From: the human T2T-CHM13v2.0 reference genome, Homo sapiens
Direction: 5' to 3'
DNA: 64,000 bases
Assembly: GCA_009914755.4 (NCBI GenBank)
Contig: CP086569.2
Location: forward strand, 60,640,001 to 60,704,000
The position numbers and the translations under genes are program-made. Of this stretch, positions 1 through 64,000 are shown one piece after another; within the stretch, counting starts at the first letter, position 1, and every line of letters begins with the position of its first letter. Under the pieces are notes generated by a model. It made no database searches and was not told the origin of the DNA. It worked only from the letters and a program-made list of their open reading frames with translations.

Positions 1-571
1 ATATAACTAACATACATAATATTATAATATAGATTATATTGTGTTATATTAAATTACATATATATCATGTATCATATATTCTATAATATATATTACACAT
101 TATATAATATGTATGTTGTCTATTATGTGATATATATAACTATATATATAATTATATTTTTATACATATAACTAGATAAACATGTAATTCTACATATTTT
201 CATTTATAATATGTAGAATTATATAATCATATATAATTATTTATATTCTATAAAAAATTTTATCATTATATAAATTATAATATATAAAAATTATAATATG
301 TACTACAAATATATATATTATATATCATATATGATATAGTACCTTTGTTATATTTCATAATACATATAAATGTGTATTATGTTATCTATAATTATATAAT
401 TTCATATATAAGATGTATAATATGTATCATATATTATATATGTTATGTAATATATATAGTATATATAAGATGACACAGGATAAATATTATATACTATGAC
501 ATATAAAATATATCAGGTTATATGTTACATATAAGGCATAGCACATAACATGTAATATATATCATATATAA
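1..571. repeat. Partial unit at the window start. It is the 3' part of the AT-rich segment of the preceding unit.
   Basis: Positions 1-571 are near-identical to 2421-2991 and to 7258-7828. Confidence 0.9.
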
Positions 572-863
572 TTTTTTTTTAGACAGAATCTTGTCCTGTT
601 GCACAGGGTGGGGTACAATGGCGCCATCTTTGCTCACTGCAGCTTCTGCCTCACGGGTCCAAGCGATTGTCCTTCCTCAGCCTCCCAGGTAGCTGGGACT
701 ACACCACACTGGGACTACACCAGCTGCCACCATGCCTAGCTAATTTTTTGGATTTTTAGTAGTGACAGCGTTTCACTGTATTGGCCAGGATGGTCTTGAT
801 CTCTTCACCTTGTGATCCCCTTGCCTTGGCCTCCAAATTTGCTGGGATTACAGGCCTGAGCCA
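572..863 (-). mobile_element. Alu SINE fragment. It is antisense, lacks about 12 bp at its 5' end, is CpG-decayed and has an internal ~16-bp duplication. It is an integral part of the satellite unit.
   Basis: The reverse complement matches the Alu consensus, for example 'ggatggtcttgatctc..gccttggcctccaaatttgctgggattacaggcctgagcca', 'cctcagcctcccaggtagctgggactaca' and 'ctcactgca'. The A-tail appears as poly-T at 572-580. Confidence 0.92.
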
Positions 864-1436
864 AGATCCATATTTTTTAAATGAAAAAAAATTTCAAAGG
901 TACTCTGCTTGGTACAATAATCAAATGTATAAACTGAGGAATAAAACATAACCATGAAACCTACTTATAACTGCATATGGAAAATACAGAGGATAATTTT
1001 TTAAATAACATATTTTGAAAGCCTTAACTAGTAATTTGAAGAGTTGGCATTTGAAAGGCCAGTATGAATATACCTTCAAAGCAGCAACACAGGTTCCCCA
1101 TGAGAAAAAGCAAACACAGGGAAAATAAAAACACAAAGGTTCAATCTCTTCTGACCTTTGAAAGACACAGCACAGACAGTGGTCCTTAGGACGAAGAGCA
1201 GGAGACCCCTAATTCCGTCACCATGGCGATAGGGCATAAACATTGCTGGGTGAGGGCACAATCCACATTGTGAGGTCCAACTGCTGCCAGGAAGACAGGA
1301 GTGCTTTTACATAGACCGAAAGGTCATTGAAGGCTCAGAGTTTTGTTTCAAGAACTGAATCCCAAGCCCACACGTTATTAGGCTGCGCTTCTTAAAACAA
1401 GTTATGAGATGGGAAAAAGGGCACCCACAAACATAC
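864..1436. other. Unique, non-Alu, moderately GC-containing segment of the satellite unit, about 570 bp and of unknown origin. This is the example from unit 1; the same segment recurs in every unit.
   Basis: It runs 'agatccatattttttaaatgaaaaaaaatttcaaagg ... gggcacccacaaacatacgtat'. It is not Alu-like and is not AT-microsatellite. Confidence 0.7.
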
Positions 1437-2991
1437 GTATACATTATGTATATAATAATATACAGTATCACATATATAATATATATAACCTATGTATAAT
1501 ATTGTTTTACATCCTGCATCTTATGTTATATATATTGTATAAAATATAATAATTGATAATATATAAGTTTTATAATTATACAATATGACATATAGTATAT
1601 ATTATAATTTATGACATATATAATATATGTTATATATCATATATAGAATATATTATACGGTTAATATACGTATTAAATATAAATTATACATTATATATAT
1701 TATATATAATATATCTGTTATATATAATACCCATTATGCATAATATATATATTATGTCTATGTTATATATAGTATAAAACAACATATAATAATATATAAT
1801 TGTATATATAAAATGCGACATATAATATATATTATATTTTATAACATATGTAATATATATTATATATTATATATAATACGTTGTATGTATAATACCTATA
1901 TTAAATATATATTATATGACTATGTTATTAATTACATGTCACATGTGTTATATATTATATATTTTACATAGAATATACCGGTTACATACAATATATACTA
2001 TGTTACCTATAATGTATAATTTATTACATGTAAAATAAAGAATGCAATATATTATGTATAATTTATAATATACAATATGTGGAATGTGATATATATAACA
2101 TATAATATATGATATATGATATACAGTATATGATATATAACATACAATATATGATTCCTAATATATATGGTATACAATATATATTTTATGATATGTATTC
2201 TATATGTTTTATATTCTGTTATATATAACTATTTGAAATTATATATAACTGTATAATATTTTATGTAGATATGTAATATAATATATATAACTATATAATA
2301 TATTATATATAACTATATATTATGTTATATATACTTTTATAACATAATTTACATAAAATATCATAATATAATATATATTATATTATTTCATATTACATAA
2401 TATATATTACATATCACCCAATATAACTAACATACATAATATTATAATATAGATTATATTGTGTTATATTAAATTACATATATATCATGTATCATATATT
2501 CTATAATATATATTACACATTATATAATATGTATGTTGTCTATTATGTGATATATATAACTATATATATAATTATATTTTTATACATATAACTAGATAAA
2601 CATGTAATTCTACATATTTTCATTTATAATATGTAGAATTATATAATCATATATAATTATTTATATTCTATAAAAAATTTTATCATTATATAAATTATAA
2701 TATATAAAAATTATAATATGTACTGCAAATATATATATTATATATCATATATGATATAGTACCTTTGTTATATTTCATAATACATATAAATGTGTATTAT
2801 GTTATCTATAATTATATAATTTCATATATAAGATGTATAATATGTATCATATATTATATATGTTATGTAATATATATAGTATATATAAGATGACACAGGA
2901 TAAATATTATATACTATGACATATAAAATATATGAGGTTATATGTTACATATAAGGCATAGCACATAACATGTAATATATATCATATATAA
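1437..2991. repeat. Complex AT-rich segment of the unit, about 1.56 kb and about 85% A+T, resembling HSATI. This is the example from unit 1.
   Basis: It is a long run of TA-rich but non-periodic sequence that is conserved position by position between units. Confidence 0.8.
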
Positions 2992-60924: not shown

Positions 60925-62508
60925 GAGATGGGAAATAGGGCACACACAAACATACGTATACATTATGTATATAATAATATACAGTATCATATATATAACA
61001 TATATAACCTATGTATAATATTGTTTTACATCCTGCATCTTATATTATATATATTGTATATAATATAATAATTGATAATATATAAGTTTTATATTTATAC
61101 AATATGACATATAATATATATTATATTTTATAACATATATAATATATATTATATATCATATATAATATATTATATGGTTAATATACGTATTAAATATAAA
61201 ATATATATTATAAGTATTATATATAGTGTACCTAAGTTATATATAATATACCCTATATATAATATATATATTATGTCTATGTTATATATAGTATAAAACA
61301 ACATATAATAATATATAATTTTATATATAAAATATGACATATAATATATATTATATTTTATGACCTGTATAATTTATATTATATATTATATACAATACGT
61401 TGTATGTATAATATATATATTAAATATATATTATATGACTATGTTATTAATTATATGTCATATATGTTATATATTATATATTTTACATAGAATATACTGG
61501 TTATATATAATATATACTATGTTACCTATAATGTATAATTTATTACATATAATATAATGTATGTCATATATTATATATAATTTATAATATACAATATGTG
61601 GAATATGATATATATAACATATAATATATGATATATGATATACAATATATGATATATAATATACAATATATGATACATGATATATATGGTATACAATATA
61701 TATTTTATGATATGTATTATATATGTTTTATATTATGTTATATATAAGTATGTGAAATAATATATAACTGTATAATATTTTATGTAATTATGTAATATAA
61801 TATATATAACTATGAAATATATTATATATAACTATAAATTATGTCTTATATAGTTTTATTACACTTTACATAAAATATCATAATATAATATATATTATAT
61901 TATTTTATATTACATAATATATATTATATATCACATAATATAAGTTACATACATAATATTAAAATATAGATTATATTATGATGTATTAAATATCATATAT
62001 ATCATGTATCATATATTGTATAATATATATTATACATTTTATATTATATATGTTGTCTATTATGTGATATATATAATTATATATATATCACATTATTATA
62101 CATATAACTACATAAAGATGTAATTCCATATGTTTTCATTTACAGTATATATAATTATATAATCATATATATTTATTTATATTCTAGAAAAAATTATATC
62201 TTTATATAAATAATAATATATAAAAATTATAATATGTACTAAAATATATATATTATATATCATATATGATATAGTATATTTGTTATATATCATATTACAT
62301 ATAACTATATATTATGTTATCTATAATAATATATTTTCATATATAAGATGTATAATATGTATTATATATTATAAATGTTATGTAATATATATAGTATACA
62401 TAAGATGACACAGGATAAATATTATATACTATGACATATAAAATATATGAGGTTATATGTTACATATAAGGCATAGCACATAACATGCAATATTTATGAT
62501 ATATATTA
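60925..62508. repeat. Partial unit with no Alu. It keeps only the last ~40 bp of the unique segment and the AT-rich body, and it is diverged.
   Basis: The junction reads 'aaattataat|gagatgggaaatagggcacacacaaacatacg' at 60924/60925. Body-like sequence then runs to the next Alu at 62509. Confidence 0.8.
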
Positions 62509-62800
62509 TTTTTTTTTAGACAGAGTCTTGTCCTGTTGCACAGGGTGGAGTACAATGGTGCCATCTTTGCTCACTGCAACATCTGCCTCACGGGTCCAAG
62601 CGATTGTCCTCCCTCAGCCTCCCAGGTAGCTGGGACTACACCACACTGGGACTACAGCAGCTGCCACCATGCCTAGCTAACATTTTGGATTTTTAGTAGT
62701 GACAGCGTTTCACCGTATTGGCCAGTATGGTCTTGATCTCTTCACCTTGTGATCCCCTTGCCTTGGCCTCCAAGTTTGCTGGGATTACAGACCTGAGCCA
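62509..62800 (-). mobile_element. Alu fragment of unit 26 (a divergent copy).
   Basis: Same, with substitutions such as 'ggagtacaatggtgcc', 'ctacagcagctgcc' and 'acctgagcca'. Confidence 0.9.
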
Positions 62801-64000
62801 AGATCCATATTTTTTAAATGAAAAAAAATTTCAAAGGTACTCTGCTTGGTACAGTAATCAAATCTATAAACTGAGGAATAAAACATAACCGTGAAACATA
62901 CTTATAACTGCATATGGAAAATACAGAGTATTATTTTTTAAAATAACATATTTTGAAAGCCTTAACTAGTAATTTGAAGAGTTTGCATTTGAAAGGCCAG
63001 TATGAATATACCTTCAAAGCAGCAACACAGGTTCCAAATGAGAGCAATCAAACTCAGGGAAAATAAAACCACAAATGTTCACTCTGTTCTGACCTTTGAA
63101 AAACACAGCACAGACAGTGGCACTTAGGACCAAGAGCAGGAGATCCCTAATCCCGTCACCATGGCGATAGGGCATAAACATTGCGGGGTGCGGGCACAAT
63201 GCACATTGTGAGGTCCAATTGCTGCCAGGAAGACAGGAGTGCTTTTACATAGACCGAAAGGTCATTGAAGGCTCAGATTTTCGTTTCAAAAACTGAATCC
63301 CAAGCCCACACGTTATTATGCTGCGCTTCTTAAAACAAGTTATGAGAAGGGAAATAGGGCACCCACAACATACGTATATAGTATGTATATAATAATATAC
63401 ACTATCATATATATAATATATATAACCTATGTATAATATTGTTTTACATCCTGCATCTTATATTATATATATTATATGTAATATAATAATTGATAATATA
63501 TAAGTTTATATTTATACAATATGACATATAATATATATTATAGTTTATGACATATATAATATAGATTATATATCATATATAGAATATACTATACGGTTAA
63601 TATACGTATTAAATATATAATATACATTATATATATTATATCTACGTTATATATAACATTAACTATAGATAATATATATATTATATCTAGCTTATATATA
63701 ATATAAAATAACAGATAATTATATATAATTGTATATATAAAATATGACATATAATATATATTATATTTTATGACATATATATCATATATATTATATATTA
63801 TATATAATATGTTGTATGTATAATACATATATTATATATATATTATAAGTCTAAATTATTAATTATATGTAATATATGTTATATATTACATATTTTACAT
63901 TTCATACACATGTTACATACAATATATACTATGTTACATGTTACCTAGAATTTATTATATATAATATAATGTATGTCATATATTATATATACTTTATAGT
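62509..64000. repeat. Satellite unit 26 (diverged, type-B-like, cut off by the window end).
   Basis: The Alu, unique segment and body all carry many substitutions, for example 'ggttccaaatgagagcaatcaaactcag'. Confidence 0.85.

What the first reader, a model, noticed from the sequence alone, without database searches (positions are those of the whole stretch)
1..64000. The entire window is an Alu-containing 2.42-kb macrosatellite resembling DYZ2 / HSat1B, with no genes
I counted 26 tandem copies with periods of 2414-2422 bp, plus one copy of 2590 bp and one of 3705 bp. Each copy has an antisense Alu, a ~570-bp unique segment and a ~1.56-kb complex segment of about 85% AT. This composite unit is what has been described for the human Yq12 DYZ2 family, which T2T work calls HSat1B and which also occurs on acrocentric short arms. 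I counted GGCC (HaeIII) sites in the sequence. There are four clustered sites per unit, at roughly 783, 828, 853 and 1057 in unit 1, and none in the AT-rich body. The largest predicted HaeIII fragment is therefore about 2.14 kb. That agrees with the classical male-specific 2.1-kb HaeIII band that I recall being assigned to DYZ2. The practical consequence is that nothing in this window should be annotated as a protein-coding gene or as a prokaryotic system.
Basis: partly seen in the sequence, partly recalled or inferred. Interest (0 to 1): 0.5.

Follow-up and report, generated by a model that had tools for sequence, protein, structure and literature searches.

The report
Human DYZ2 / HSat1B satellite array

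Summary
The window is one uninterrupted head-to-tail array. It has 26 unit starts and 25 complete intervals: 23 of 2414-2422 bp (mode 2420), one of 2590 and one of 3705. A part-unit lies at each end. Each unit has a 292-bp 5'-truncated antisense Alu (78% identical to AluY), a 574-bp GC-richer segment and a 1554-bp body that is 86% AT.

The window consensus is exactly 2,420 bp. GC is 24.2%, CpG density is 1 per 138 bp, and an ACATACG heptamer sits at the junction with the AT-rich body. All of these match published descriptions of Y-linked DYZ2/HSat1B.

A 40-nt probe target taken from the 1984 "male-specific 2.47-kb satellite I" sequence, and shown by in-situ detection to label only Yq, occurs once per unit (26 times, 15 exact). 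Human-contaminant contigs in 17 unrelated bacterial assemblies are 96.8-100% identical to the window consensus.

There are no ORFs of 90 aa or more, no Pfam or Rfam gathering-level hits and no tRNAs. In-silico HaeIII fragments are 2144-2148 bp. Yq12 versus an acrocentric short arm cannot be settled without a reference alignment, but Y is favoured. This is already known and of low interest.

The parts
1..64000 (.). Uninterrupted tandem array of the 2.42-kb DYZ2/HSat1B unit: 25 complete units plus a part-unit at each end. Nothing else is inserted.
   Evidence: Anchors and intervals. In the multiple alignment of 25 units, the only insertions of 10 or more columns carried by three or fewer units are the two in u20 and u25. 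The ends map to consensus 1850-2420 and 1-1496.
572..863 (-). 5'-truncated Alu of unit 1; it recurs in every unit. It aligns to AluY consensus positions 13-289 and carries a 15-nt internal duplication of GTAGTCCCAG-type sequence. The poly(A) tail abuts the AT-rich body and the Alu head abuts the GC-richer segment.
   Evidence: Local alignment score 265, against at most 27 in 200 shuffles and 19 on the plus strand. Identity is 78.2% counting gaps and 83% without. AluY scores higher than AluJ or AluSx. Sub-threshold Rfam hit to the Alu-derived mir-1268 at 676-742(-).
864..1437 (.). GC-richer non-Alu segment of 574 bp and 39% GC, called 'HSATI' in RepeatMasker-based descriptions. It is the most conserved part of the unit (91% invariant columns). 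It ends in ACATACG (1431-1437).
   Evidence: The published HSATI part is 566 +/- 16 bp, and ACATACG is reported at the junction.
1438..2991 (.). AT-rich body of 1554 bp and 86% AT, made of degenerate short repeats with many imperfect inverted repeats. All unit-length variation lies here.
839..878 (-). 40-nt target of the published 'Y-chrom' padlock probe, derived from the Frommer 1984 male-specific 2.47-kb repeat. It spans the junction between the Alu head and the HSATI part, and a DraI site (TTTAAA) follows it.
   Evidence: 26 matches, 15 exact and 11 with one mismatch, one per unit, all on the minus strand; 0 expected by chance. Probe sequence and Yq-only signal from PMC2212658. DraI context in 25 units.
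783..1060 (.). Cluster of four HaeIII (GGCC) sites in unit 1, at 783, 828, 853 and 1057. Three are in the Alu and one is in the HSATI part.
47890..48059 (.). 170-bp expansion (2% GC) inside the AT-rich body of unit 20. It explains the 2590-bp interval.
60923..62508 (.). Partial unit of about 1.59 kb, covering consensus 833-2419 and 92.3% identical to it. It lacks the Alu and nearly all of the GC-richer segment. It is joined to the preceding unit, which stops at consensus position 2130. The junction reads ...AAATTATAAT|GAGATGGG... This explains the 3705-bp interval.
49130..56383 (.). Three adjacent units (u21-u23) that are 99.5-99.6% identical to each other. They share 24-26 private derived alleles and have lost the GGCC at offset 257. 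This is a recent local triplication.
62509..64000 (.). Last, incomplete unit, only 91.8% identical to the consensus. It is the end point of a left-to-right divergence gradient.

Best explanation
The window is a piece of the human satellite family HSat1B, classically called DYZ2 or the male-specific 2.47-kb satellite I repeat. It most probably comes from one of the DYZ2 blocks of the Yq12 heterochromatin.

The unit is a composite. An old Alu insertion, a GC-richer stretch of about 570 bp and an AT-rich degenerate simple-repeat body of about 1.55 kb were captured together and amplified as one 2,420-bp unit.

It encodes nothing. It is constitutive heterochromatin that persists and changes by array dynamics, not by selection on a product. 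Unequal sister-chromatid exchange or non-allelic homologous recombination, together with gene conversion, duplicate, delete and homogenise whole units. Slippage changes the length of the AT-rich body.

Shown here: the family identity of the sequence; length variation confined to the AT-rich body; runs of neighbouring units that share private variants; one recombinant or truncated unit; and a gradient from highly homogenised units (99.6% to consensus) to old diverged ones (92%) across the window.

Inferred from the literature: the molecular mechanisms, the heterochromatic and hypermethylated state, and the suggestion that the diverged right end lies near the edge of an array.
For: Family identity:
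- The unit architecture and all metrics match the published DYZ2/HSat1B description. The consensus is exactly 2,420 bp (published).
- The Alu is 292 bp, 5'-truncated and 78% identical to AluY. Published values are 290 +/- 2 bp, ~20% diverged and 5'-truncated.
- The GC-richer segment is 574 bp including ACATACG. The published HSATI part is 566 +/- 16 bp plus the 7-nt ACATACG.
- GC is 24.2% and CpG density is 1 per 138 bp. Published values are 24% and 1 per 150 bp.
- The body is 86% AT; published >85%.
- 23 of 25 units are at least 98% identical to the consensus. The published statement is that the vast majority are over 98%.

Sequence-level link: the 40-nt target of a probe designed from Frommer 1984 labelled only Yq, and it is present once per unit.

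Independent human copies: 17 contigs in taxonomically unrelated bacterial assemblies are 96.8-100% identical to the window consensus. One is a circularised 2,420-bp unit at 100.000% identity. The T2T-Y paper attributes exactly this kind of contaminant to HSat1B and HSat3.

Favouring Y over the acrocentrics:
- About 14 Mb of DYZ2 lies on T2T-Y, against 'smaller amounts' on the acrocentrics.
- The consensus length equals that of the Y consensus, whereas the AT-rich part is 'highly variable' between chromosome-specific consensuses.
- The unusual 3705-bp Alu-to-Alu interval lies near the upper extreme of the unit sizes reported on Y (1,275-3,719 bp). The ~1.3 kb of extra sequence that produces it (1,289 bp in the alignment) is close to the lower extreme.

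Array dynamics.

No coding or RNA genes.
Against: No reference genome, Dfam or RepeatMasker library was available, so the unit was never aligned to a sequence explicitly labelled DYZ2 or HSat1B beyond the 40-nt probe target.

HSat1B arrays also exist on acrocentric short arms, notably chr15 and chr21. The window has no flanking DYZ1/HSat3 or other sequence that could place it.

Only 10 of 25 intervals are exactly 2,420 bp. One passage of the 43-Y paper gives 93.7% of Y units at that length, though another passage of the same paper gives 46.8% for the modal length.

The right third of the window is more diverged than the bulk of Y copies are reported to be.
Confidence: 0.9

Rival explanations
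1. Same family (HSat1B), but the window comes from an acrocentric short-arm array (chr13, 14, 15, 21 or 22; chr15 and chr21 have sizeable arrays), not from Yq12.
For: HSat1B arrays are documented on acrocentric short arms, and the 43-Y paper calls DYZ2 a 'Y-unspecific repeat unit'. Allelic alignments below 95% identity on the short arms originate mostly from HSat1B on chr15 and chr21, and the right part of the window is comparatively diverged at 92-98% to consensus. No DYZ1 flank is present in the window.
Against: [quoted passage not shown] The window consensus has exactly the Y consensus length of 2,420 bp, while the AT-rich part differs strongly between chromosome-specific consensuses. The left 10 units are 99.1-99.6% identical to the consensus recovered from contaminant human DNA. 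Units with diverged peripheries are also described for Y arrays.
Confidence: 0.13
2. An orthologous or related satellite from a non-human ape, not from human.
For: The source of the window is not given. A classical paper title cited (Cooke et al. 1982) refers to related sequences in higher primates. I did not find data on HSat1B in ape T2T assemblies.
Against: The window consensus is 100.000% identical over 2,497 bp to a contaminant contig in a bacterial assembly and 99.4-99.9% identical to many others. Laboratory contamination of that kind is overwhelmingly human. The human-derived 40-nt probe target matches exactly in 15 units. Several million years of divergence would not leave a 2.4-kb non-coding consensus identical.
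Confidence: 0.02
3. The window hides a functional gene, a structured RNA or a prokaryotic system among the repeats.
For: Two ORFs of 61-71 aa recur once per unit in the GC-richer segment on the minus strand. A sub-threshold mir-1268 match lies in the Alu.
Against: No ORF of 90 aa or more exists in six frames over 64 kb. The short ORFs start with TTG and have no Pfam match at E<=1. No Rfam family reaches its gathering score and no tRNA or tmRNA is found. The mir-1268 hit scores 33.9 bits against a gathering score of 83, and is simply the Alu right arm from which that miRNA family derives (my own knowledge). The whole window is accounted for by the repeat unit.
Confidence: 0.01

Closest known systems
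DYZ2 / HSat1B of human Yq12 (Frommer, Prosser & Vincent 1984 'male specific 2.47 kb' satellite I repeat; T2T-Y, Rhie et al. 2023; Hallast et al. 2023)
   Same: The unit length and consensus length (2,420 bp), the tripartite composition, and the Alu length, truncation and divergence all agree. So do the size of the HSATI part, the ACATACG junction, GC and CpG content, inter-copy identity, the size range of variant units, and the 40-nt probe target.
   Different: Nothing tested differs. The chromosomal position next to DYZ1 blocks could not be checked. The right third of the window is more diverged than typical central Y copies, which the literature also describes for array peripheries.
HSat1B arrays on acrocentric short arms (chr13, 14, 15, 21, 22)
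   Same: Same family and composite unit. These arrays are thought to have been seeded from the Y-linked arrays.
   Different: They are smaller. The AT-rich part is reported as highly variable between chromosome consensuses, and allelic identity is low. The window instead has the Y consensus length and, on its left side, very homogeneous units. This was not directly testable here.
HSat1A ('SAR', 42-bp AT-rich satellite)
   Same: It comes from the same classical AT-rich satellite I density fraction.
   Different: It is an unrelated sequence with a 42-bp period and no Alu. The window has a 2.42-kb composite period.
DYZ1 / HSat3A6 (3.5-3.6-kb Yq12 repeat)
   Same: It is the partner satellite that alternates with DYZ2 blocks on Yq12, and it is likewise defined classically by HaeIII digestion.
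   Different: It derives from CATTC pentamers, has 38% GC and a ~3.57-kb unit. None of it is present in the window. The padlock paper (PMC2212658) mislabels its target as DYZ1, but the target sequence lies in the DYZ2-type unit.

Membership tests
DYZ2 / HSat1B | Head-to-tail tandem repeat of ~2.4-2.5 kb; the Y consensus is 2,420 bp | tested here: met
   25 intervals with mode 2420. The majority consensus of 25 units is exactly 2,420 bp. Published values.
DYZ2 / HSat1B | Composite unit: an AT-rich (>85% AT) simple-repeat body, one 5'-truncated Alu and a GC-richer 'HSATI' part, in that order | tested here: met
   The body is 1554 bp and 86.1% AT. The Alu is at 572-863(-) and lacks consensus positions 1-12. 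The GC-richer part is 574 bp and 39% GC. The Alu tail abuts the AT body and the Alu head abuts the GC-richer part.
DYZ2 / HSat1B | Alu subunit ~290 bp, closest to AluY, ~20% diverged | tested here: met
   The Alu is 292 bp and 78.2% identical counting gaps (83% without). AluY scores 265, AluSx 223 and AluJ 216. The consensus sequences were taken from PMC8097388 and PMC5218400. I added the leading G and an 8-A tail to the printed AluY.
DYZ2 / HSat1B | ACATACG heptamer at the junction between the HSATI part and the AT-rich body | tested here: met
   25 occurrences, one at each junction including the partial unit. It is mutated in 3 units. Published.
DYZ2 / HSat1B | Base composition ~24% GC and ~1 CpG per 150 bp | tested here: met
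   24.2% GC and 465 CpG, or 1 per 138 bp. Published.
DYZ2 / HSat1B | Contains the sequence published by Frommer et al. 1984 for the male-specific repeat, tested through the 40-nt padlock target derived from it | tested here: met
   26 matches, 15 exact and 11 with one mismatch, one per unit, with 0 expected by chance. Probe from PMC2212658. Only 40 nt could be tested because the 1984 paper itself is not held.
DYZ2 / HSat1B | The GC-richer part matches the Repbase/Dfam HSATI consensus, and the whole unit aligns to HSat1B annotations in T2T-CHM13v2.0 | not testable with these tools
   No Dfam, RepeatMasker or human reference is available. As a proxy, human-contaminant contigs of the kind the T2T-Y paper assigns to HSat1B and HSat3 are 96.8-100% identical to the window consensus.
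DYZ2 / HSat1B | HaeIII digestion yields a ~2.1-kb fragment (classical definition, recalled from memory: Cooke 1976; Cooke et al. 1982) | tested here: inconclusive
   In-silico fragments are 2144-2148 bp in most units, which fits the recalled value. The reference value itself could not be found in the held literature.
Yq12 location (DYZ2 in the strict sense) | [quoted passage not shown] | not testable with these tools
   The window contains only HSat1B and has no flanks. Indirect support comes from the abundance prior, the Y-type consensus length and variant unit sizes within the Y range.
Acrocentric short-arm HSat1B | Chromosome-specific consensus and flanking acrocentric satellites (HSat3, beta satellite, rDNA-proximal sequences) | not testable with these tools
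   No chromosome-specific consensus sequences are printed in the papers or the supplement that I could read.

The most novel reading that the evidence does not exclude
The least ordinary reading still open is this. The window captures the old, unhomogenised edge of an HSat1B array, with divergence rising from 0.4% to 8% across 64 kb and an Alu-less recombinant unit at 60923. It may also lie at a non-Y or otherwise uncatalogued location, such as a polymorphic acrocentric array. Either would give a small view of how the family was seeded and spread between the Y and the acrocentric chromosomes. This would be an incremental detail within a known family, not a new kind of element.
Probability: 0.12. 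Interest if true: 0.15.

Novelty: already known. Interest (0 to 1): 0.05.

Why it matters
It matters mainly for housekeeping. The window should be masked as satellite DNA, and nothing in it should be called a gene or a prokaryotic system.

It also illustrates a practical hazard. The same 2.42-kb unit turns up as contaminant contigs in many bacterial genome assemblies, including one fragment scaffolded into a 5.16-Mb RefSeq actinobacterial chromosome. Scans of microbial or metagenomic data can therefore meet this sequence and should recognise it.

Biologically it adds nothing beyond what the T2T-Y and 43-Y assembly papers already describe.

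Tried and rejected
- Rfam as an independent Alu/7SL detector. Only a sub-threshold hit to the Alu-derived mir-1268 appeared, and no SRP hit. I therefore aligned to Alu consensus sequences printed in two papers.
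- A sequence explicitly labelled DYZ2 or HSat1B. The T2T-Y text prints no primers. Frommer 1984 (PMC318713) is not held. Warburton 2008 was uninformative because the term matched HSATII. The padlock-probe paper finally gave 40 nt.
- Literature confirmation of the 'male-specific 2.1-kb HaeIII band'. Five searches found nothing that states it. The one '2.1 kb' co-occurrence was unrelated.
- Data on HSat1B in other apes. The papers found discuss HSat1A only.
- Viral contig scan with the invariant 38-mer: 0 hits.
- A higher-order repeat spanning several units. Identity falls smoothly with lag, from 98.5% at lag 1 to ~97.7-98.1% at larger lags, with only a weak bump at lags 6-7 caused by one subfamily (u11-13 and u18-19). 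There is no regular higher-order repeat.
- Microhomology at the 60923 junction. Only about 2 nt (AT) is shared, which means nothing in such AT-rich DNA.

Full report
**Observation**

The window is 24.2% GC and repeats itself by eye: 1-60 recurs at 2421-2480. A 40-nt anchor taken at 572 recurs at 26 positions and gives 25 complete intervals. 23 of them are 2414-2422 bp, with 2420 the mode at 10 occurrences. One is 2590 bp and one is 3705 bp. A second anchor at 1201 gives the same series.

The window holds 25 complete units, a 571-bp part-unit on the left (consensus 1850-2420) and a 1.49-kb part-unit on the right. Pairwise identity between units is 95.9-99.6%, mean 97.9%.

All 98 GGCC sites lie 51-487 nt from a unit start, and none is in the AT-rich body. 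20 units have four sites and six units have three. The usual large in-silico HaeIII fragment is 2144-2148 bp.

**Anatomy of the unit**

The reverse complement of 572-863 aligns to AluY consensus positions 13-289. The consensus is the one printed in PMC8097388, to which I added a leading G and an A-tail. Identity is 78.2% counting gaps and 83% excluding them. A 15-nt internal duplication accounts for most of the gaps. The score is 265, against a maximum of 27 in 200 shuffles and 19 for the other strand. AluJ and AluSx score lower. The Alu is therefore antisense on the + strand, 292 bp long and 5'-truncated by 12 nt.

Then comes a 574-bp segment of 39% GC (864-1437). It is the most conserved part of the unit and ends in ACATACG. 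Last is a 1554-bp body of 86% AT, built of degenerate short repeats and many imperfect inverted repeats. The majority consensus of the 25 units is exactly 2,420 bp.

**Comparison with the published family**

[quoted passage not shown] It says the vast majority of copies are over 98% identical to the consensus.

The 43-Y-assemblies paper and its supplement give a 2,420-bp consensus and a 5'-truncated Alu of 290 +/- 2 bp. They give an HSATI part of 566 +/- 16 bp and an ACATACG heptamer at the junction between the HSATI part and the AT-rich body. They also report 24% GC, one CpG per 150 bp, length variation mainly in the AT-rich part, and unit sizes from 1,275 to 3,719 bp.

The window matches on every count:

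- a consensus of 2,420 bp;
- an Alu of 292 bp;
- a GC-richer segment of 574 bp including the heptamer;
- ACATACG at 25 junctions;
- 24.2% GC;
- one CpG per 138 bp;
- 23 of 25 units at least 98% identical to the consensus;
- both length outliers explained by events in the AT-rich body.

**Sequence-level links**

First, PMC2212658 designed a padlock probe against a 40-nt target taken from Frommer et al. [quoted passage not shown] Joining the two probe arms gives AAAAAATATGGATCTTGGCTCAGGCCTGTAATCCCAGCAA, which spans the junction between the Alu head and the GC-richer segment. It occurs 26 times in the window, once per unit, all on the minus strand. 15 matches are exact and 11 have one mismatch, with none expected by chance. 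The DraI site used in that protocol lies next to it in 25 units. That paper calls its target 'DYZ1', which is a mislabel, because the sequence belongs to the DYZ2-type unit.

Second, an invariant 38-mer from the GC-richer segment was scanned against one genome per bacterial and archaeal species. It hit 17 assemblies from unrelated phyla, including Mycobacterium, Bifidobacterium, Streptomyces, Azospirillum and Chromatium. Nearly all hits are on contigs of 0.6-2.5 kb. These fragments are 96.8-100% identical to the window consensus. One of them, L001, is a single 2,420-bp unit circularised with a 77-nt overlap and is 100.000% identical to the consensus. They match the consensus better than they match any individual unit, as expected for collapsed assemblies of a high-copy repeat. 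The T2T-Y paper reports exactly this phenomenon and attributes it to HSat1B and HSat3. This also argues strongly that the window is human and not from another ape.

**No genes**

There is no ORF of 90 aa or more in six frames over 64 kb. The only ORFs of 60 aa or more are two TTG-started stretches of 61-71 aa that recur once per unit, and neither has a Pfam match at E<=1. No Rfam family reaches its gathering score. The only sub-threshold hit is to the Alu-derived mir-1268, at 33.9 bits against a gathering score of 83. There are no tRNAs.

**How the array behaves**

Length changes are confined to the AT-rich body. One is a 170-bp expansion of pure AT sequence at 47890-48059, which makes the 2590-bp unit.

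The other concerns the 3705-bp interval. A unit truncated at consensus position 2130 is joined at 60923 to a second unit that starts at consensus 833. That second unit lacks the Alu and almost all of the GC-richer segment. The 3705-bp Alu-to-Alu interval is close to the largest unit size reported on Y assemblies (3,719 bp). The extra sequence that produces it (1,289 bp in the alignment) is close to the smallest (1,275 bp).

Neighbouring units share private variants. u21-u23 share 24-26 derived alleles and have lost one GGCC site. u11-u13 and u18-u19 share 14-22. u5 and u15 share 10. There is no regular multi-unit higher-order repeat.

Identity to the consensus falls from 99.1-99.6% in u1-u10 to about 98% in u17-u24. 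It then drops to 96.9% at 58804-60924, 92.3% in the partial unit and 91.8% in the last unit.

These patterns are what unequal exchange, gene conversion and slippage produce. They match the published picture of homogenised array centres and diverged peripheries. The mechanisms themselves are inferred, not shown here. So is the suggestion that the right end of the window lies close to an array edge.

**Y or acrocentric**

HSat1B also occurs on acrocentric short arms, with sizeable arrays on chr15 and chr21, and the window has no flanking sequence. Several points favour the Y:

- about 14 Mb of the family lies on T2T-Y, against smaller amounts elsewhere, and the family is described as 'almost entirely on the Y';
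- the window consensus has exactly the Y consensus length, although the AT-rich part is reported to vary strongly between chromosome-specific consensuses;
- the left ten units are highly homogeneous;
- the variant unit sizes fall within the Y range.

I put Yq12 at roughly 0.8-0.85 and an acrocentric array at about 0.13. Only an alignment to complete assemblies can decide this.

**Unverified point**

It could not be found in the held literature. The in-silico 2144-2148-bp fragment is consistent with it.

**Verdict**

This is a textbook satellite that is already described at single-base resolution. Novelty is 'already known' and interest is low.

Noticed in passing
L006 5897-6920 (NZ_HF570958.1, Nostocoides japonicum T1-X7, 5.16-Mb scaffold): A 1,024-bp HSat1B fragment, 98.0% identical to the window consensus, sits between two 100-N gaps inside actinobacterial DNA of about 70% or more GC. 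A human-contaminant contig appears to have been scaffolded into a RefSeq bacterial chromosome. The left arm of its Alu is visibly closer to the AluY consensus than the window's Alu is. It may be a different HSat1B subfamily or a chimeric collapse with other Alu reads.
   Followed up: partly
L001-L017 (GTDB genome contigs): 17 bacterial assemblies from unrelated phyla carry HSat1B fragments, mostly as contigs of 0.6-2.5 kb. L001 ('Mycobacterium sp. 1100029.7', LZSC01000004.1) is one whole 2,420-bp unit circularised with a 77-nt overlap and is 100% identical to the window consensus. This reproduces the contamination reported in the T2T-Y paper.
   Followed up: yes
window 1-64000 (gradient); sharpest at 58804-64000: There is a left-to-right divergence gradient. 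Units are 99.1-99.6% identical to the consensus at the left, about 98% in the middle-right, and then 96.9%, 92.3% and 91.8% in the last three pieces. This suggests the right end approaches an array boundary that lies just outside the window.
   Followed up: partly
window 49130-56383 (u21-u23); also 24767-32017 vs 41700-46539: Blocks of units share private variants. u21-u23 share 24-26 derived alleles and have lost the GGCC at offset 257. The same site is also missing in u24, which shares only 1-2 private alleles with them. u11-u13 and u18-u19 form a second subfamily seven units apart. These are signs of recent local duplication or gene conversion without a regular higher-order repeat.
   Followed up: yes
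window 60923 (junction ...AAATTATAAT|GAGATGGG...): A recombinant junction joins consensus position 2130 in the AT-rich body to position 833 near the end of the GC-richer segment. It creates an Alu-less partial unit. The resulting 3705-bp Alu-to-Alu interval is close to the largest unit size reported for Y assemblies (3,719 bp), and the ~1.3 kb of extra sequence is close to the smallest (1,275 bp).
   Followed up: partly
window 839-878 and PMC2212658: The padlock-probe paper calls its Y target 'DYZ1', but the 40-nt target sequence lies in the DYZ2/HSat1B unit. This is a nomenclature slip in the literature.
   Followed up: yes
window 676-742 (-), repeated in each unit: A sub-threshold Rfam match to mir-1268 (33.9 bits, gathering score 83). 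It is the right arm of the Alu with its internal 15-nt duplication, and is not a miRNA gene.
   Followed up: yes
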